A stretch of DNA of 64,000 bases from assembly GCA_965207735.1 (NCBI GenBank), contig OZ242296.1:2464001-2528000 (forward strand). Direction: 5' to 3'. The notes beneath the pieces are model-generated. The model made no database searches, was not told where the DNA came from, and saw only the letters and a program-made list of their open reading frames with translations. A program made the translations under genes and the position numbers. This document shows, piece by piece, positions 11,376 to 59,834 of this stretch. Positions within the stretch are counted from its first letter, which is position 1; the number at the start of each line of letters is the position of its first letter. The DNA is from Candidatus Versatilivorator sp. (GTDB lineage: Bacteria; Acidobacteriota; Terriglobia; Versatilivoradales; Versatilivoraceae).

Positions 11376-11462
11376 TGTCGCCGCCTTCGCGGCTCGGGCA
11401 TTGAGCTATCGGTTTCCATGGGCTTACGCCCACGGCTAAGTGCTGCCGCCGCTTCGCGGCTC
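11376..11462. repeat. REP-like element (CCATGGGcttacgCCCACGG / GCCGCTTCGCGGC)
   Basis: Near-identical second copy at 48457-48505. Confidence 0.75.
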
Positions 11463-27819: not shown

Positions 27820-29046
27820 ATGATTAATGTAACCAACACCACCCGCCTGCTACGTAAGACGAAACCCAAGGGCCGCCATCCCCAAAAAGCCCTCTCGGCT
27901 GCCTTCATCCGCTCCGCTCCGCCCGGAAGACACGCCGATGGGAACGGATTGTACCTCTTCGTCCAACCCAGCGGAACCCGCAGCTGGATTCAGCGCCTTC
28001 TCGTCCGCGGTCGCCGCCGTGAGCTCGGACTCGGCAGCGTTGCCCTGGTCCCGTTGGCCGAGGCCCGGGAGAAGGCGCTCGCCTACCGCAAGCTCGCCCG
28101 CCAGGGCGGGGACCCGCTCGCCGAGAAGCGACGTAGCCAGGGCATTCCCACCTTCGCCGAAGCCGCCATGCGTGTGCTGGAGCAGAAGCGGGACGGCTGG
28201 CGCAATCCAAAACACTCCCGCGAGTGGCTGTCGAGCCTGAGTCGGTTCGCCTTCCCCCGCATCGGCAAGATGCCGGTCTCCGAGGTCACCAGCGCCGATC
28301 TGCTTGAGATCCTCACGCCCCTCTGGCACCGGAAGGTGGCCACGGCCAAGCGGGTGCGCCAGCGCCTGCGGGCGGTCCTGGAATGGGCGGTGGCCATGGA
28401 GTACCGCCTTGACAACCCCTGTGACCGGATCGGTCCGGTGCTGGGTTCCCAACAGGACGTGACCGAGCACATGCAGGCCGTGCCCCATCGGGAGGCGGGT
28501 GCGGTGATACGTAGGGTGCGGGCATCGGCAGCGCTGCCGGGCGTCAAGTTGGCTCTTGAGTTCCTGGTGCTGACGGCAGCCAGGTGGGGCGAGGTGCGGT
28601 GGGCCGAGTGGAAGGAGATCGATCGGGACGGGAGGGTGTGGACCGTCCCGGCCAGACGGGCAAAGACGAACCGCCGGCACCGGGTGCCTCTGTGTGGCCG
28701 CGCCCTGGAGATTCTCGAAGTGGCCCGAGCACTCGAAGAGGGAGACGGTCCGCTGGTGTTCACCCATGGGGGCGGGAAGCCTCTCCATGACAGCATGCTG
28801 CGGCGCCTGTTGCGCAGACTTGGGATTGCGGCGGTGCCGCACGGGTTCCGCTCGACATTCCGGGACTGGGCGGGGGAGGAAACGGATCATCCCCGGGAGG
28901 TAATCGAGGCGGCCTTGGCGCATGTGGTCCGGAACCGGGTGGAGGCGGCCTATGCCCGCTCGGACCTGTTTGAGCGCCGGCGCATCCTGATGGACGACTG
29001 GGCGCGGTACTTGGCCCAAGGGACGGCTACGGACTCGGAGGCCTGA
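27820..29046 (+). CDS. P4-type tyrosine integrase (Arm-DNA-binding domain)
   Basis: GRHADGNGLYL, LAEAREKA; catalytic R (TAARWGE), K, HGFR, LAH and AAY. Confidence 0.95.
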   Translation: MINVTNTTRLLRKTKPKGRHPQKALSAAFIRSAPPGRHADGNGLYLFVQPSGTRSWIQRLLVRGRRRELGLGSVALVPLAEAREKALAYRKLARQGGDPLAEKRRSQGIPTFAEAAMRVLEQKRDGWRNPKHSREWLSSLSRFAFPRIGKMPVSEVTSADLLEILTPLWHRKVATAKRVRQRLRAVLEWAVAMEYRLDNPCDRIGPVLGSQQDVTEHMQAVPHREAGAVIRRVRASAALPGVKLALEFLVLTAARWGEVRWAEWKEIDRDGRVWTVPARRAKTNRRHRVPLCGRALEILEVARALEEGDGPLVFTHGGGKPLHDSMLRRLLRRLGIAAVPHGFRSTFRDWAGEETDHPREVIEAALAHVVRNRVEAAYARSDLFERRRILMDDWARYLAQGTATDSEA

Positions 29047-29979: not shown

Positions 29980-31679
29980 GCCCGCATTTCTCACCAGAGG
30001 TAGGAAGCATCGGTTCTCGGAATCTGGTAAAATACTCTTGTCTAAGGAGTTAACCAGATTCTTAAAGGAGAACCGATGCCGACACAGTGTAACACCAAAC
30101 CCCTGGAGTTTGAACCCCACGGCCGCCGCCGCGTGGTGGCTGATTTCGACGGCGGTCCCATCACTTCCGATGCCGGCTCCCTGCTGTTGCGCCGGGTGGA
30201 TCGGGGCTTATCTCTCTCCGACCAGGTGGCCGACTGTTTCACCGATCACCGCGACCCCAAGCGGACCCAATACAGCCTGCGCACCCTCATCGCTCAGCGC
30301 ATCCGTGGCATCGCCCTCGGCTACGAGGATCTCATCGACCACGACCAACTCCGTCACGATCCCCTCATGGCCTTGTTTTCAGAGAAAGGCCGTCGTGGCG
30401 ACTCGCCTCCCCTGGCAGGCAAGAGCACCCTCAACCGACTCGAACACGCCCCCACCCAAGGCCCCACCCGCTACCACAAGATTGACCACGACCCCGAGGC
30501 CTTGCAAGCCCTCCTGGTGAAACTGTTTCTGCAAGCCCATCCCCAACCCCCCGATGAGATCATCCTCGACCTCGACGCCACTGACGATCCCCTCCACGGG
30601 GAACAAGAGGACCGCTTCTTCCACGGCTACTACCGAGGCTACTGCTACCTGCCCCTCTACATCTTCTCGGGCCGCCATCTGCTCTCGGCCCTGCTCAGAC
30701 CCGCCAACATCGATGCCTCCGCCGGCGCTCTGGAGCAGGTCCAGCGCATCGTCTCCCGCCTACGGCGTGTCTGGCCTCAGGTCAAGATCCTGCTGCGGGC
30801 CGACTCCGGCTTTGCCCGTGAGGAGCTGATGGGGTGGTGTGAGCAGCATCAGGTCGACTATCTCTTCGGCCTGGCCCGCAACTCCCGCCTCCAAGACGCC
30901 ATCGCCCCCGAGTTGGCTCAGGCCCAGGCCCTCTCAGACCAGCAACAGCAGCCCGCCCGGATCTTCACCGACCTCTCCTACCGCACTCACAAGAGCTGGT
31001 CCCACGAGCGCCGCCTGGTCGCCAAAGCCGAGGTCCTGCCCCGCGGCCCCAACCCCCGCTTCGTCGTCACCTCTCTGTCGGTCCAGGACTACCCCGCCCA
31101 GTTCCTCTATGAGAAGATCTACTGTGCCCGCGGTGAGATGGAAAACCGCATCAAGGAGCAGCAACTCGACCTGTTTGCCGATCGCACCTCCACCCACTCC
31201 TTCCGGGCGAATCAGCTCCGGCTCCTGATGACCTCTTTCGCCTATGTGCTGGTGGAGGGCTTGCGCCGGCGGGCGCTGCAATCCACCTGCCTGGCCCGGG
31301 CCACCGTCGGTTCCATCAGACTCAAACTGCTCAAGATCGGCGCTCAGGTCACCATCTCGGTCCGTCGCATCAAGGTCGCCATGGCTTCCGGATGTCCTTA
31401 CCAGAGGGAGTTCCGCATCGCTTGGGCTCACCTGCCGCCCTGAGGTGCCCTGACCCGACCGTCACTCCTGGCCCTTGAAGACGCGGCCACCAGGCCCGAT
31501 GGCAGAGGTGTCGCTGTTTTCGAGGGAAAATGCCGCCTGAGGTTCCTCGGAGAGCCTCAGAAGCCTCCGCTGTTGGCCTTTGCCTACCGATCCAGCCACC
31601 AACGTTGTTAAACTCGGCCTCAAATGCCTCCATGGCCCCTTTTACCGCTCCTGTGCGAACTCTGGTGAGAAATGCGGGC
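29980..31679 (+). mobile_element. IS1380-family insertion sequence
   Basis: 20-bp IR GCCCGCATTTCTCACCAGAG / CTCTGGTGAGAAATGCGGGC; flanked by TA on both sides. Confidence 0.95.
30076..31443 (+). CDS. IS1380 family transposase
   Basis: FDGGPITSDAG, LDLDATDD..HGEQE, LRADSGF and YCARGEMENRIKEQ. Confidence 0.95.
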   Translation: MPTQCNTKPLEFEPHGRRRVVADFDGGPITSDAGSLLLRRVDRGLSLSDQVADCFTDHRDPKRTQYSLRTLIAQRIRGIALGYEDLIDHDQLRHDPLMALFSEKGRRGDSPPLAGKSTLNRLEHAPTQGPTRYHKIDHDPEALQALLVKLFLQAHPQPPDEIILDLDATDDPLHGEQEDRFFHGYYRGYCYLPLYIFSGRHLLSALLRPANIDASAGALEQVQRIVSRLRRVWPQVKILLRADSGFAREELMGWCEQHQVDYLFGLARNSRLQDAIAPELAQAQALSDQQQQPARIFTDLSYRTHKSWSHERRLVAKAEVLPRGPNPRFVVTSLSVQDYPAQFLYEKIYCARGEMENRIKEQQLDLFADRTSTHSFRANQLRLLMTSFAYVLVEGLRRRALQSTCLARATVGSIRLKLLKIGAQVTISVRRIKVAMASGCPYQREFRIAWAHLPP

Positions 31680-55287: not shown

Positions 55288-56869
55288 GGAGTCTGCGCCG
55301 CAGGACGATTTCGGAAAGTTCAAGAGCGAGAGGCTACTGCGCAAGGCCGGTTCCAAGGAGTGCTTGGGAGCCACTTGGGCGTTGATAGAGTCTCAAGCGT
55401 CCTGTGGGCTCCCACAATGGGCGGTTGAGGACCTCCGTGGCCCTGGGTATTGGGTGGAAATCCCTTGCTTCAGGCCGCCATCAACGCACTCATCCTCTTG
55501 ATGTTGAGGGCCAGACACACCAAGTCCCACTCCCCCTGCACTGATTGCAAGCCCCGCAGACTGAACCGTCGGAATCCCAGCCCCTCCTTGATCCACCCAT
55601 GAGGGGCTTCGGCAATCCACTTCCTCCGCCGATACTCCACCTGACCGGCTAGGCTGGCCAGCTTCTTCCTCATACGACTCTTGGCCGGATGCTTCCTGGG
55701 ATCGATCTCTACCGCCCGCTTCCCCTCGCGCCCCAGCGCAACATAACCGTCCACTCCTCTCTCTTCCAGGGCCTGCAAGTCCTCCTCATTGCAGTAGCCC
55801 GCATCCGCCAGCACCTGTTTCGGTATCTCCTGGAAGCTCTCCTCCACCTCCTCCAGCAACTCCATCATCTGCCCCTGATCGCTCGCCTGCGCCGTTACCT
55901 CGGTGGCCACAATGATCTGGTGCTCTCCGTCCACCGCCACCTGCGCGTTGTAGCATTGCTGGAACCCCTCGGTGGAAGTCTTCATGATCCGGCTTTCCGG
56001 ATCGGTGAAATTACTCTGCGCCTTCTCCTCCGGTTCTCCGTAGGCCCGCTTGTAGGGCCGTCGTGCTTTCGGGTTGCGGTCCTGTCCCGGTTTGCGCCCC
56101 CGCTCCTCATCGGCCTCCCGCTGGGCCGCCTCCAGCCGCTGCTTGGCCGCCTCGATCGCCGCCAGCCGGTCCTCCCGCCGCCGCAACTCCTCGGGCAACT
56201 CATCCCCACGCCGGTCTTCCCCGTACCGCTCATCTTCCTCCCGGTCCTCCCGCCGCGCCTTCTTCAACAACTCATGGATCTCTGCCTTCAGTTGCCGCTC
56301 CCGCTCCTTCATCCGACCATAGCTCATCGCCTTGCGCCGGCTCGCGTTCGCCCGCACCTTCGTCCCGTCGATCCCCAATCGCCCCAACCCCACCATCCCC
56401 ATCTCCCGCGCCAAGCTCACCACCTGTACGAACAGCTGCTTGAAGTCCTTCAAATGCCGGCGGCGAAACTCGCACAACGTCCGATGCTGCGGAAAGTTCC
56501 CCGCCGCCAGCATCCGAAACGCCACGTCTTCCTCCAGCTTCCTCGCGATCTTGCGCGACGAGAACACCCCTGTCGCATAGGCGTAAATCAACACCTTCAC
56601 CATCATCCGCGGCTCGTAGGGCGAGTTGCGCCTCCCGTCCTCTTCATAGGGCCGGTAAAACGCTCTCAACTCCAGCCCATCCACCAACTCACTCACCTGA
56701 TGGGCCAAGTGCCCTTCCGGTACCCACTCCCCCAGGTCCGGCGGCAACATCAACAGTTGCTTCGGCTGATACGGGCGAAACCTTGTCCCCATCCACCACC
56801 TCCTATGATGTCTCTAAGCCCGTTATTGTATCATTCAGCCCTGCCCGGGTTTTCTGCGGCGCAGACTCC
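55288..56869 (-). mobile_element. IS1182-family insertion sequence
   Basis: 16-bp IR GGAGTCTGCGCCGCAG; CTAG at both junctions. Confidence 0.9.
55470..56792 (-). CDS. IS1182 family transposase
   Basis: YEPRMMVKVLIYAY..GVFSSRKI, IDGTKVRANAS, NFTDPESRIMK, YNAQ and LADAGY. Confidence 0.95.
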   Translation of the reverse strand: MGTRFRPYQPKQLLMLPPDLGEWVPEGHLAHQVSELVDGLELRAFYRPYEEDGRRNSPYEPRMMVKVLIYAYATGVFSSRKIARKLEEDVAFRMLAAGNFPQHRTLCEFRRRHLKDFKQLFVQVVSLAREMGMVGLGRLGIDGTKVRANASRRKAMSYGRMKERERQLKAEIHELLKKARREDREEDERYGEDRRGDELPEELRRREDRLAAIEAAKQRLEAAQREADEERGRKPGQDRNPKARRPYKRAYGEPEEKAQSNFTDPESRIMKTSTEGFQQCYNAQVAVDGEHQIIVATEVTAQASDQGQMMELLEEVEESFQEIPKQVLADAGYCNEEDLQALEERGVDGYVALGREGKRAVEIDPRKHPAKSRMRKKLASLAGQVEYRRRKWIAEAPHGWIKEGLGFRRFSLRGLQSVQGEWDLVCLALNIKRMSALMAA

Positions 56870-56871
56870 TA

Positions 56872-57985
56872 GCCCGCATTTCTCACCAGGGGGCATGATC
56901 ATGGCGCAGGATTTTTCCCTTCAGGGCGTGCTCGCGACCGAAGAGCGTAGCGGTCACTACGCGCGAGGGAGCATGTGCGCGCTGAAGGGAAAAAGACAAG
57001 CCAGGGCATGCCCAGCGCTGTCTGTTACCCGCAAGCCCTTACCATGGAGCCAATCTAAGTACTGAAGATAAACTACTTTTCGGCATGGCACCAGCGACCT
57101 GGGTAGAGTCGAGGACTGGCGCGTTGACTATAGGGTCCGGTGGCTATTCCGTCGCTTTCGCTTCGGGCCTCAGTCCGGCTCCCTTATCACGTTTCCAGTC
57201 CCCGCTCTCCGAACCGGACGTGCGGTTTTCCCGCATCTCGGCTCTCCAGTGGGATCATGCGTCTCGCACACAGGTCCCCGCTCGCATCCGTGGACGACTC
57301 CTATGGGATTGGCACCCGTCCCCCACTCCATCCACTTCCGCTCCCGGGTTGCCGCCAGGCCTGTTGATGCCCTGACGACGCCGTCCTCCTCCGACGACCC
57401 TTTCACTTTTGCATGTGATGCTTCCGGAGTCTCCGGCCCTTTTTTGGTCGGGGTTTCAGGCTTTCGCCACTCCCGGGACCCTTCCCCCTTCGGTCACCGC
57501 TCCTCACCTGAGGCCCCTTCCCTCCACCGGTATTACCCGGCTTCTCCGGTACTACAGGCCTCTCCGCCACCCTGTCGGCCTAGACTGACTCTCGCGAGCT
57601 TCCGGTTCGGTGCGTGCCTCACCACCCACAGGGCTTCCCATGTTGCTGCCTTCTTCCCCTTCCATGCGTGCCAGCGCCACTACCCCGGCGGGTCCAAAGG
57701 GGTGCCCGCGTCGCTCGCTTCCCCCTCCGTCTTCGGCCTTCCCCATTTCTCAGGTGGGTCGGCCCCCGCATTGCCCGTTTCGAGGCCTGCTCGACGTTCA
57801 CTCGCGTTCCGGCCCGCATGCTCGCTGAACCGCCTTAAGCGGCCCTTTGACACCAGAGGGCTTCAGACCATATCGTTACCTCCATGATCCGCCCTGGCTG
57901 CTACCAACCGGAGCGACAGTTGTTGGACGGGTTTCGCACCCGTTGGAAGAAGGCGCCTTTCCATGGCGCACTGAGAAATGCGGGC
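56872..57985. mobile_element. IS1380-type MITE (~245 bp without the intron), right IR split by a group II intron
   Basis: Left IR is identical to the IS1380 IR (56872-56889); CTGG|TGAGAAATGCGGGC is restored on intron removal; internal hairpin TTTTTCCCTTCAG...CTGAAGGGAAAAA. Confidence 0.9.
57103..57971 (-). ncRNA. ORF-less group II intron (869 nt, IIB-like)
   Basis: 5' GTGCG at 57971; 34-nt domain V GAGCCGAGATGCGGGAAAACCGCACGTCCGGTTC (57244-57211); 3' end ...ACTCTAC at 57103; EBS1/EBS2 complementary to the 5' exon. Confidence 0.92.
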
Positions 57986-58103
57986 TAGGGGTATTGCTCA
58001 GGGACTCGACTTCATACGCGGCAAGGCCCGGACGCACCGGGCGGAGGGCCACCCCCGGGCGCCAACTCGGAGGGCGATGCGAAAGGCGCGGGGGGACGGC
58101 GGA

Positions 58104-59834
58104 CTACACGGCGGCGCGGCTGATGGTCCGGGCCTCCGACATGCGGGTGATCAGCTCGACCCGCCTGATCCTAAGAGGCTTGTCCGAGCCGGGACCCCGG
58201 TAGTTCAGCCGAATGGACACCGGGTTGCGGCCACTCTTGAGGGCCGCGATGGGAACCCGAAACCTCAAGGCCTTGAAATGCATGTCGAAGGGCTTGTCGG
58301 CAGGAAATCCGATCATGCCGTTGCCGGGCAAGGGAGCGATTCGATACCCCACGTTTTCCCAGTTGGCGGCCACATCCACTCCGGAGGGTTCCAGGACCGT
58401 GTCACCCATCGAGACCGTCAAACGATCCCCCGGCTTGGAATAATCCAGCGCCAGCCAGAGCTCGGCTGTCTTGGGCTTGCTGGTCTTGAAGTCGTCGGCC
58501 ACCGGCATGTAAAACGACTTGGCGCCATCGGCCACGTTCAAGTTGAAGGGGACCGGCGCTCCCTTGGAGACCGTGTTGTAGCGCACGTAGTCGGCGCCCG
58601 GGGCCCGGGGACTGGCTTCGAACCGCTGAACGGCCGTGTAGTGCTTGTCCTTCTTCCTCATGCGCTTGGGGTCGGCGATCTCGTTCAGCAGGTGCTTGCG
58701 CCAACTGCCGTATAGATACCAGTTGAAGGTGTAAATGCCGTCGGCTCCGTCTCGCCACAGGTTGGCCGCGCTCCCTCGAATGACCTCGTCCGGGCTGACG
58801 CGGTAGCTGTTTCCATAACTGTAGAGGCTGGGATAGATGGGAAGCCGGCGCGCCTTCATCAGGCCTCGAAACTCATTCAGCGTCGGCAACTCGGTCAATC
58901 CCTGCCCCAGGATCAGCATGTCCGCCAGGTCCTCTTCGATCCACTTCTCGATTTCGAAACCGCCCAGTTGGCACCACTCCAGCTTCTCCGGGATGCGGAC
59001 GGCAATCTCGATGGGACGGCCCCGGCGGCTGGCCTTCTGGTTGAGGCTCTTGCGGATGGCGCGCATGAACTCGGTCAGGTATTTGCCGTTCTCTCGCTCG
59101 GTGCCGCGCTGGAAGTAGAGCGTATGGCGCAGCCAGTCCAACTCGATGCCGTCGAAATCCCAGCGATCGAAAAACTCCTCGGCCACTTTGAGCTTCAGGG
59201 CCCGGACTCTGGGATGGGCGAAGTTCAGGGCCGTCCACCAGTCGAGATCGTCCACCAGCCAGTCGGGATTGATCCGCTTGAAGGTGGGCAGCTCCGGGTT
59301 GGGCAAGGTGCCCTTGGCGTGCTGGCCGTCATGGGTGTCATTCATCCTGAGGGAAACGAAGGCATCCAGGCCTCGCTTGCGGCACTCCTCCACGATCACC
59401 TTGGGAGGATTGTGGCCGGCGTCCGCCAGGCTCTTGGGGTTGAGGTACTGGTCCTTGGGATCGACTTCGATTCCGCCGTGCCAGGTCTTGCTCTCCGGGA
59501 ACTTGAACCGGTCGGCCTCGCCCGGCCACTCCAGCACGTTGCTCTGGTATTCGGCCACGTTGCCGCTGCCGAAGCTGAACATCAGCGTGTCCACGCCGGT
59601 GTTCTCAATCGGATTGAAGACCAGCGAGGTGAACTGCTCCCGCGTGAGGGGGCCATAGGAATGGGGCAGGGCCGTCCGGCCCCAGCAGTGAATCATGGAC
59701 CCGTCCCAATTGAACAGCAGCCGCCGTTTCTTGCCGGAGGCTCCGGCCCGCTTGGGCTTGGGGCCGGCATGCAGCAACTGAGCGAGCCCACCGGCTCCCA
59801 CGATCATGAAGCTTCGTCTGGTTATCGATTGCAT
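58104..59834 (-). CDS. GHL10-like TIM-barrel protein, Tat signal
   Basis: TRRSFM; NWDG, SLRMND, LNFAHPRVR, FDGIELDWLRH and GADGIYTFN. Confidence 0.75.
   Translation of the reverse strand: MQSITRRSFMIVGAGGLAQLLHAGPKPKRAGASGKKRRLLFNWDGSMIHCWGRTALPHSYGPLTREQFTSLVFNPIENTGVDTLMFSFGSGNVAEYQSNVLEWPGEADRFKFPESKTWHGGIEVDPKDQYLNPKSLADAGHNPPKVIVEECRKRGLDAFVSLRMNDTHDGQHAKGTLPNPELPTFKRINPDWLVDDLDWWTALNFAHPRVRALKLKVAEEFFDRWDFDGIELDWLRHTLYFQRGTERENGKYLTEFMRAIRKSLNQKASRRGRPIEIAVRIPEKLEWCQLGGFEIEKWIEEDLADMLILGQGLTELPTLNEFRGLMKARRLPIYPSLYSYGNSYRVSPDEVIRGSAANLWRDGADGIYTFNWYLYGSWRKHLLNEIADPKRMRKKDKHYTAVQRFEASPRAPGADYVRYNTVSKGAPVPFNLNVADGAKSFYMPVADDFKTSKPKTAELWLALDYSKPGDRLTVSMGDTVLEPSGVDVAANWENVGYRIAPLPGNGMIGFPADKPFDMHFKALRFRVPIAALKSGRNPVSIRLNYRGPGSDKPLRIRRVELITRMSEARTISRAAV

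What the first reader, a model, noticed from the sequence alone, without database searches (positions are those of the whole stretch)
56872..57987. ORF-less group II intron programmed against the IS1380 terminal inverted repeat and sitting in an IS1380 MITE
Seen: the intron (57971 to 57103) splits the MITE right IR exactly (CTGG|TGAGAAATGCGGGC). Its 5' exon is gCCCGCA-t-TTCTCA. The intron carries UGCGGG (EBS2, 57770-57765) followed by UGAGAA in a stem loop (EBS1, 57752-57747), giving canonical IBS2/IBS1 pairing. Domain V is intact. The RT is deleted; only an 'EASHAKVK'-like N-terminal vestige remains near 57424-57401. Three unoccupied perfect targets exist in this window (29980, 31679, 56872). 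Inference: this is a three-tier hyperparasite, a non-autonomous intron needing an RT in trans that homes into every IR of a multicopy IS/MITE family. Insertion would also disable that end, so it could act as a brake on IS1380 transposition.
Basis: partly seen in the sequence, partly recalled or inferred. Interest (0 to 1): 0.78.

Follow-up and report, generated by a model that had tools for sequence, protein, structure and literature searches.

The report
Protein-less intron colonising transposon ends
A group II intron (an RNA-guided jumping element) that has lost its own enzyme gene sits in 28 copies in this bacterial genome, always at one position of a sequence that forms the end-repeats of IS1380-type transposons; it likely borrows its enzyme from full-length relatives and likely swaps its target-reading half with them, a new combination of two habits already known from other bacteria.

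Summary
An 869-nt ORF-less group II intron (57971-57103, minus) splits the right 17-bp inverted repeat (IR) of a 243-bp IS1380-type MITE after base 13. The genome holds 28 near-identical copies: 19 in MITE ends, 6 in IS1380 ends, 3 at IR-like sites. 24 of 28 lie on the lagging-strand template. EBS1 and EBS3 covary with targets across relatives. Fifteen RT-encoding relatives are present, one with the same guides in an IS1380 end. The ORF-less intron is a mosaic: domain I groups with RT-encoding introns of the same specificity, the 3' half with an old ORF-less lineage (AU p 3e-63). A brake on IS1380 is not shown. IR targeting (RmInt2) and ORF-less spread in trans (T. elongatus) are published, and this scan found the same kind before, in this genome and others. 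The domain I swap was not found in my searches. New variant of a known kind.

The parts
57103..57971 (-). ORF-less group II intron, 869 nt; one of 28 near-identical genome copies (22 identical)
57747..57752 (-). EBS1 (UGAGAA) in the terminal loop of the ID3 stem
   Evidence: covariation; fold; stem pairs
57773..57777 (-). EBS2 as reassigned here (CGGGC); pairs with exon -14..-10
   Evidence: same position pairs 4 of 5 with the exon in Ni.ha.I1 (read)
57765..57769 (-).
57680..57680 (-). EBS3 (G, intron nt 292); pairs with the first 3'-exon base
   Evidence: best column, complementary to +1 in 26 of 30 introns
57401..57424 (-). Vestige of the RT N-terminus in domain IV
   Evidence: weak, E 0.004
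57209..57246 (-). Domain V, with AGC triad and 5-nt loop
57105..57203 (-). Long domain VI with bulged branch A
57972..57977 (-). IBS1 (IR bases 8-13)
57981..57985 (-). IBS2: last base of the CTAG duplication plus IR bases 1-4
57102..57102 (-). IBS3 (C, IR base 14)
56873..57984 (.). IS1380-type MITE, 243 bp without the intron; right IR split into 57984-57972 and 57102-57099
56873..56889 (+). Intact left IR of the MITE, an empty target on the disfavoured strand
56869..56872 (.). CTAG target duplication, left; shared with the IS1182 insertion
57985..57988 (.). CTAG target duplication, right
55289..56868 (-). IS1182-family element (transposase 56792-55470) inserted in the CTAG next to the MITE left IR
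29981..31678 (+). IS1380 element, 1698 bp (transposase 30076-31443), both IRs empty

Best explanation
This is an ORF-less group II intron of class F-like build, present in 28 copies at one position of the IS1380/MITE end sequence, that likely spreads by retrohoming with a reverse transcriptase borrowed from co-resident full-length introns. Shown: the copies, their sites, the covariation of EBS1, EBS2 (CGGGC) and EBS3 with exon -6..-1, -14..-10 and +1, the strand bias, 14 intact RT ORFs of one lineage, and conflicting trees for domain I and the 3' half. Inferred steps: (1) transcription from outside the element gives a precursor, here probably read-through from the co-directional gene ending at 58104; (2) an endonuclease-free RT/maturase from one of the 14 intact ORFs aids splicing; (3) the RNP reverse-splices into single-stranded lagging-strand template at the fork, pairing with the IR and the adjoining duplication base; (4) each new IS or MITE insertion makes two opposite targets, one on the favoured strand; (5) recombination near nt 400-415 exchanges domain I, and with it the target specificity, between the ORF-less scaffold and RT-encoding introns.
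For: 28 copies, 22 identical. 27 at the exact 13-mer, 1 at a one-mismatch site; +1 = C in 28 of 28, and 0 of 9 exact sites with another +1 base are filled. Host ends are varied: 19 MITE ends of distinct haplotypes, 6 IS1380 ends (left and right), 3 others, as expected from independent homing. 24 of 28 on the lagging-strand template vs 45 of 129 empty sites, Fisher p 1e-6, with origin at dnaA and terminus at the skew maximum; 23 of 28 with the antipodal terminus or local skew. EBS covariation. RT sibling with the same guides: 1996 nt, 446 aa, TIGR04416 333 bits over the 300 cut-off, in an IS1380 left IR. Mosaic: domain I 95% to that sibling and 88% to other ORF-less introns; last 165 nt 69% to the sibling and 96-100% to the ORF-less introns of the genus. 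AU test rejects ORF-less monophyly in domain I (p 2.9e-63) and rejects same-guide monophyly in the 3' part (p 0.025). Breakpoint profile. The same ORF-less intron is in 5 of 13 congeneric genomes as a full-length match.
Against: No splicing or homing was observed. No contig of six metatranscriptomes showed the exon-exon joint among the listed joints (contigs only, tables cut). The ORF-less domain IV-VI is far from that of every local RT intron (about 69-71% in the last 165 nt), so recognition by these RTs is assumed, not shown. 4-5 of 28 copies lie on the disfavoured strand, and GC skew is irregular between 2.8 and 4.5 Mb. EBS2 position -14 shows no selection in this genome: G in 23 of 28 filled vs 100 of 120 empty sites. 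Groups for the AU tests were chosen after seeing the identity matrix; the 3' alignment is short (177 columns); the direction of the swaps is not established.
Confidence: 0.8

Rival explanations
1. The intron spread mainly as cargo: it entered a few ends once and the IS1380 transposase then moved intron-bearing MITEs and ISs as units.
For: The outer 13 IR bases and the duplication stay at the element tip. One pair of MITE+intron composites is identical at different loci (genome 5027596 and 5213340) and another pair differs by 2 bases.
Against: Identical introns sit in both MITE ends, both IS ends and three other sites. 54 of 55 pairs of same-end intron-bearing MITEs differ, by 7.3 bases on average. 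The strand bias affects filled sites, not the elements. It can explain a minority of copies only.
Confidence: 0.08
2. The intron works as a brake on IS1380: splitting an IR stops that element moving, and this effect helps keep the intron in the genome. This is compatible with retrohoming; the question is the effect.
For: 7 of 21 IS1380 and 19 of 40 MITEs have one IR split after base 13 of 17. RmInt1 is argued to limit ISRm2011-2 (PMC4238363 abstract; PMC5894124 passage).
Against: 14 of 21 IS copies are free and 19 copies are at least 99.9% identical, a recent burst despite the intron. 19 of 28 copies sit in MITEs, which encode no transposase. One identical composite pair hints that a split end can still move. 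IS1380-family elements such as ISEcp1 use degenerate ends (recalled, not checked).
Confidence: 0.3
3. The copies were made or homogenised by DNA-level recombination or gene conversion among repeats, not by RNA-based homing; the intron is a dead passenger.
For: Duplications mismatch in 14 of 40 MITEs and 1 of 21 ISs and skew is irregular, which suggests recombination between repeats. The domain I swaps show that recombination among introns occurs.
Against: Precise insertion at one junction in unrelated flanks, a replication-strand bias, EBS1/2/3 covariation, and intact DV/DVI in all copies.
Confidence: 0.05
4. The apparent mosaic is convergence: ORF-less and RT introns reached the same guides by point mutation, as in T. 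elongatus, where each EBS family is its own clade.
For: EBS divergence by mutation is the published route (PMC2882425 passages). EBS loops are variable here (26 distinct EBS1).
Against: The shared signal covers all of domain I, not only the loops: ORF-less L034 differs from RT intron L033 by 0-2 bases per 40 columns up to about nt 397, then by 8 and 12. AU p 2.9e-63.
Confidence: 0.05

Closest known systems
RmInt2 of Sinorhizobium meliloti GR4 (PMC4615759, passages read; PMC5894124, passages)
   Same: Endonuclease-free intron with all copies in the left and right IRs of one IS (ISRm17); lagging-strand-template bias; IBS2 at -14..-10 with CTAG just upstream or overlapping; tolerates an EBS2 mismatch; related IEPs complement each other.
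   Different: RmInt2 is class D, encodes its own IEP and has 7 copies. This one is class F-like, ORF-less, has 28 copies, sits mostly in MITEs, and targets an IS1380-family IR (the family of ISRm17 was not stated in the passages I saw).
ORF-less TeI3 introns of Thermosynechococcus elongatus (PMC2882425, passages read)
   Same: ORF-less introns outnumber RT-encoding ones, keep ORF remnants, sit at well-paired sites and are mobilised by a driver IEP in trans; families differ in EBS.
   Different: TeI introns are CL/IIB1 with an endonuclease domain, and each EBS family is a clade. Here the same guide module occurs on both ORF-less and RT-encoding bodies, pointing to recombination, and the target is a transposon end.
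Class F sensu lato introns, e.g. Ni.ha.I1 (g3) (PMC3552965 parts 1-3 of 4 and Table S2 read; PMC3753933 passages)
   Same: Sibling IEP is RT-X only, 446 aa, 45% identical to Ni.ha.I1 over its length against 29% to Sr.me.I2, g1. Domain I is 71% identical to Ni.ha.I1 over 180 nt. 5-nt DV loop and long DVI.
   Different: No ORF; the subgroup (g3, g4 or basal F) was not resolved; the introns listed in Table S2 all carry ORFs or ORF fragments.
RmInt1 in ISRm2011-2 (PMC4238363, abstract only)
   Same: An intron living in an IS and proposed to limit its spread.
   Different: RmInt1 interrupts the IS itself and is argued to act through poor splicing. Here the IR is split at DNA level, so splicing cannot restore the end.

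Membership tests
Group II intron ribozyme | 5' GUGYG and 3' AY ends | tested here: met
Group II intron ribozyme | Domain V with catalytic triad; domain VI with bulged A | tested here: met
   Rfam Intron_gpII over gathering; fold z -4.8
Group II intron ribozyme | EBS1, EBS2, EBS3 complementary to the exons | tested here: met
   (EBS2 is CGGGC, not UGCGGG)
Group II intron ribozyme | Splices in vitro or in vivo | not testable with these tools
   no exon-exon joint among the listed joints of RNA contigs; contigs cannot show absence
Class F sensu lato (IIF; g2-g4 and basal F) | IEP of RT-X type without endonuclease | tested here: met
   sibling IEP 446 aa aligns end to end with Ni.ha.I1, listed as RT-X; no HNH-specific scan was run
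Class F sensu lato (IIF; g2-g4 and basal F) | 5-nt DV loop (classes E and F) and long structured DVI (class F) | tested here: met
   against the description in PMC3753933
Class F sensu lato (IIF; g2-g4 and basal F) | Phylogenetic placement of the IEP among classes C, D, E, F, g1-g4 | tested here: inconclusive
   only two named references compared, 45% (g3) and 29% (g1); B.th.I3 record not held; no tree
RmInt2-type IR-targeting intron | Copies in both left and right IRs of an IS | tested here: met
   ORF-less copies in 2 left and 4 right IS1380 ends, and in both MITE ends
RmInt2-type IR-targeting intron | Lagging-strand-template bias | tested here: met
   24 of 28 vs 45 of 129
RmInt2 itself / class D | Class D IEP encoded in domain IV | tested here: not met
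   no ORF in the intron; works like RmInt2 but is not filed as one
ORF-less mobile introns (TeI3 type) | ORF lost, many near-identical copies at well-paired sites, related IEP in the genome | tested here: met
ORF-less mobile introns (TeI3 type) | Mobilisation by an IEP in trans shown by assay | not testable with these tools
   needs a homing assay
IS1380 family (resident IS) | IS1380 transposase, terminal IRs, short target duplication | tested here: met
   NF033539 410.6 bits over 180; 1698 bp; 17-bp IRs; 4-bp duplication matches in 20 of 21
IS1380-type MITE | Short, multicopy, same IRs and duplication type as the IS | tested here: met
   243 bp; 40 paired copies; IR match 17 of 17; duplication matches in 26 of 40
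IS1380-type MITE | Internal deletion derivative of the resident IS1380 | tested here: not met
   no similarity beyond the IR; mobilisation by this transposase is inferred

The most novel reading that the evidence does not exclude
An old ORF-less intron scaffold reprograms itself by capturing whole domain I guide modules (EBS1+2+3) from whichever RT-encoding intron shares its genome, through crossovers near nt 400-415. One protein-less RNA chassis thus appears with at least three target programmes in this genus (IS1380 IR, a REP-like repeat, a second repeat). In the IS1380 programme it reads the IS/target-duplication junction, outnumbers its matched RT donor 28 to 1, and fills IRs next to an IS1182 that favours the same junction.
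Probability: 0.5. Interest if true: 0.62.

Novelty: new variant of a known kind. Interest (0 to 1): 0.42.

Why it matters
The core biology has precedents, so this is not a new principle. It is a large, clean natural data set: 44 full-length introns of one lineage in a closed genome, with filled and empty targets countable on both strands. It fixes EBS2 for this lineage by covariation, which any targetron design from it would need. The conflicting trees suggest that guide modules move between ORF-less and RT-encoding introns by recombination, a route to new specificity beside the point-mutation route described in T. elongatus. It also makes testable whether an intron in an IR silences a transposon end.

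Tried and rejected
UGCGGG as EBS2: rejected. The EBS2 tally used a register off by one and was redone. Upstream hairpins as the cause of site choice: no difference, mean -3.7 vs -3.4 kcal/mol, p 0.62, 18 filled vs 86 empty sites. tblastn of the RT against the ORF-less intron gave no significant hit (best E 0.045). Automatic IR finding around 49 IS1380 loci of relatives was mostly uninformative: it found ends close to this IR in one G009 and one G047 locus and other CCCG-starting ends in G005 and G011, none matching the intron targets in G048, G053, G056 or G055. So those targets are not shown to be IS1380 ends; for three of them a partner IR lies 175-240 bp away. In G005, G009 and G011, 12 of 21 intron sites had a partner IR within about 2 kb. 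Sequencing runs: contigs of six metatranscriptomes (three studies) cover the intron with strain differences, but they are contigs, depth is no measure of expression, and no spliced joint was listed; not used as evidence either way. The promoter scan found no outward promoter at the IS1182 end and one consensus match inside the intron on the + strand. 26 of 130 introns did not fit the pattern used and were left out; head-to-tail copies were dropped before the covariation counts. Simon et al. 2008 (ORF-less introns, classes E and F) is not held and may already list such introns. Searches for prior reports: intron with IS1380 or terminal IR; intron chimeras or recombination; IS1182 at IS1380 ends. 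Most hits were seen as listings only; passages were read from PMC12584367, PMC8632793, PMC2504315 and PMC8643678. None described domain I exchange between ORF-less and RT introns, but subscription papers are largely missing from the library.

Full report
What is there. On the minus strand, 57971-57103 is an 869-nt group II intron with canonical ends. Rfam finds its domain I (group-II-D1D4-4, 80.8 bits) and domains V-VI (Intron_gpII, 41.2 bits). DV-DVI folds far better than shuffles (z -4.8), with a 5-nt DV loop, a long DVI and a bulged A. There is no RT ORF; a weak vestige of the RT start remains at 57424-57401. The intron sits after base 13 of the 17-bp right IR of a 243-bp MITE (56873-57984) flanked by CTAG. 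That IR is the IR of the IS1380 at 29981-31678 (NF033539, 410.6 bits). An IS1182 (55289-56868) occupies the CTAG at the other MITE end. The host is probably an Acidobacteriota, inferred from an Acido-Lenti-1 RNA in the window and the labels of the nearest RT relatives.

Genome census. The 5.26-Mb single contig holds 28 near-identical copies, 22 of them identical. All 28 follow the same 13-mer (27 exact, one with a mismatch) and precede C. Nineteen are in MITE-type ends, six in IS1380 ends (two left, four right), three at other IR-like sites. Of 156 exact sites 27 are filled; 0 of 9 exact sites with a non-C next base are filled. Of 21 paired IS1380 copies, 14 are free and 7 carry an intron at one end (one of them RT-encoding). 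Of 40 paired MITEs, 20 are free, 19 carry it at one end and one carries a scar. None of the 61 has two, though one MITE in relative G011 does. With the origin at dnaA (3.54 Mb) and the terminus at the skew maximum, 24 of 28 copies lie on the lagging-strand template against 45 of 129 empty sites (p 1e-6); other models give 22-24 of 28. This is the published signature of endonuclease-free retrohoming (PMC4615759).

Source of RT. Fifteen 2-kb introns of the same lineage are present, 14 with intact 446-449 aa ORFs; tblastn found no other group II RT apart from one weak fragment. One (genome 5004992) has the same EBS1, EBS2 and EBS3 and sits in the left IR of a diverged IS1380. Thirteen have another EBS1 and sit mostly in a REP-like repeat; one has a third EBS1 and sits in a 14-copy repeat. 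Which RT serves the ORF-less intron is not known.

Target recognition. EBS1 covaries with exon -6..-1 (4.10 vs 2.42 pairs of 6, 42 combinations). Intron nt 292 is the best EBS3 column (26 of 30). The 5-mer after GAAA covaries (p 0.0002). Here it is CGGGC and pairs with the last base of the duplication plus the first four IR bases. In G011 the five copies with CGGGU all sit at sites with A at -14. RmInt2's selected IBS2 is also -14..-10. Against strictness: 5 of 28 copies here have a mismatch at -14, the same share as empty sites. Kin are not independent in these tallies; one row per distinct guide was used to lessen that.

Mosaic. Domain I of the window intron is 95% identical to the RT sibling and 88% to ORF-less introns with other guides. 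Its last 165 nt are 69% identical to the sibling, 96-100% to the ORF-less introns of the genus and 90% to one in another family. In the domain I tree the ORF-less introns are scattered (monophyly rejected, p 2.9e-63); in the 3' tree they are one clade (100/99) and the same-guide group is rejected (p 0.025) (21 rows; three shorter ORF-less introns from G047 and G055 left out). ORF-less L034 follows RT intron L033 to about nt 397 and then switches; L058 does the same against L088. So guide modules have been exchanged between bodies more than once. Direction is unresolved, and groups were named after seeing identities.

Relatives. Full-length ORF-less matches occur in 5 of 13 congeneric genomes: G005, G009 and G011 at the same IR sequence, G004 and G008 at the REP-like repeat. 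RT relatives across several phyla (72 loci) have many targets; 2 of 72 loci have a close IS1380 transposase directly behind the intron, besides same-genus copies at this IR. IR targeting is thus one programme of the lineage, not all of it.

The brake. Splitting an IR may well cripple that end, but nothing here shows it. Fourteen of 21 IS copies are free, 19 are at least 99.9% identical, most introns sit in MITEs, and one identical MITE+intron pair at two loci hints that a split end may still move or be copied. I put a real brake at about 0.3.

Unexplained. IS1182 favours the same junction: 10 of 13 copies abut an IR, while 85 of 1718 CTAG sites do. Exact IRs beside IS1182 are filled in 7 of 9 cases against 18 of 104 others (p 3e-4), and 7 of 7 against 17 of 62 on the favoured strand. 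Possible causes, untested: a split end frees the CTAG from bound IS1380 transposase, or the IS1182 end improves the distal exon or opens the DNA.

Comparison and verdict. IR homing with strand logic is published for RmInt2 (PMC4615759, passages). ORF-less spread by a driver IEP is published for T. elongatus, where EBS families are clades that arose by mutation (PMC2882425, passages). The ribozyme and sibling IEP are class F-like, subgroup unresolved. Earlier notes of this scan reported the same kind in this and other genomes. My searches found no paper on the last two, but Simon et al. 2008 and most subscription papers were not available. New variant of a known kind; interest 0.42.

Noticed in passing
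window 55289-56868; genome-wide: IS1182-family element, 13 copies, duplicates CTAG; 10 of 13 abut an IS1380-type IR, and adjacent IRs are enriched for the intron.
   Followed up: partly
G000:C1 409328 and 12 more copies (L032): 13 RT-encoding introns with another EBS1, mostly in a REP-like repeat (about 200 motif matches); IS1380 also inserts into that repeat.
   Followed up: partly
G000:C1 4589468, 1135573, 4261108 (L033, L034): Third target programme: one RT intron, one ORF-less chimera and a 121-nt internally deleted remnant, all in a 14-copy hairpin-rich repeat; an empty copy lies near window 33470.
   Followed up: partly
G000:C1 572756 and 331226: Intron-loss scars at IR-type sites: only the first few intron bases, or a short 5' stub, remain.
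   Followed up: no
L046 (G011): A 242-bp MITE with both IRs occupied by two different ORF-less intron variants, duplication intact.
   Followed up: no
L156, L180, L188, L189, L191, L199: Head-to-tail tandem arrays of RT-encoding introns of this lineage, up to at least five starts in one locus.
   Followed up: no
G000:C1 2.8-4.5 Mb: GC skew is irregular and dnaA (3.54 Mb) is far from the skew minimum (4.51 Mb); mismatched duplications at some elements suggest inversions between repeats.
   Followed up: no
window 11416-11461: Acido-Lenti-1 RNA, Rfam RF01687, 46.4 bits.
   Followed up: no
window 27820-29046: Phage-type integrase just upstream of the IS1380, suggesting an island edge.
   Followed up: no
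genome-wide: About 105 further empty IR-like sites outside the IS1380 and main MITE types, and a 38-bp element made of little more than two IRs at 2315632.
   Followed up: no
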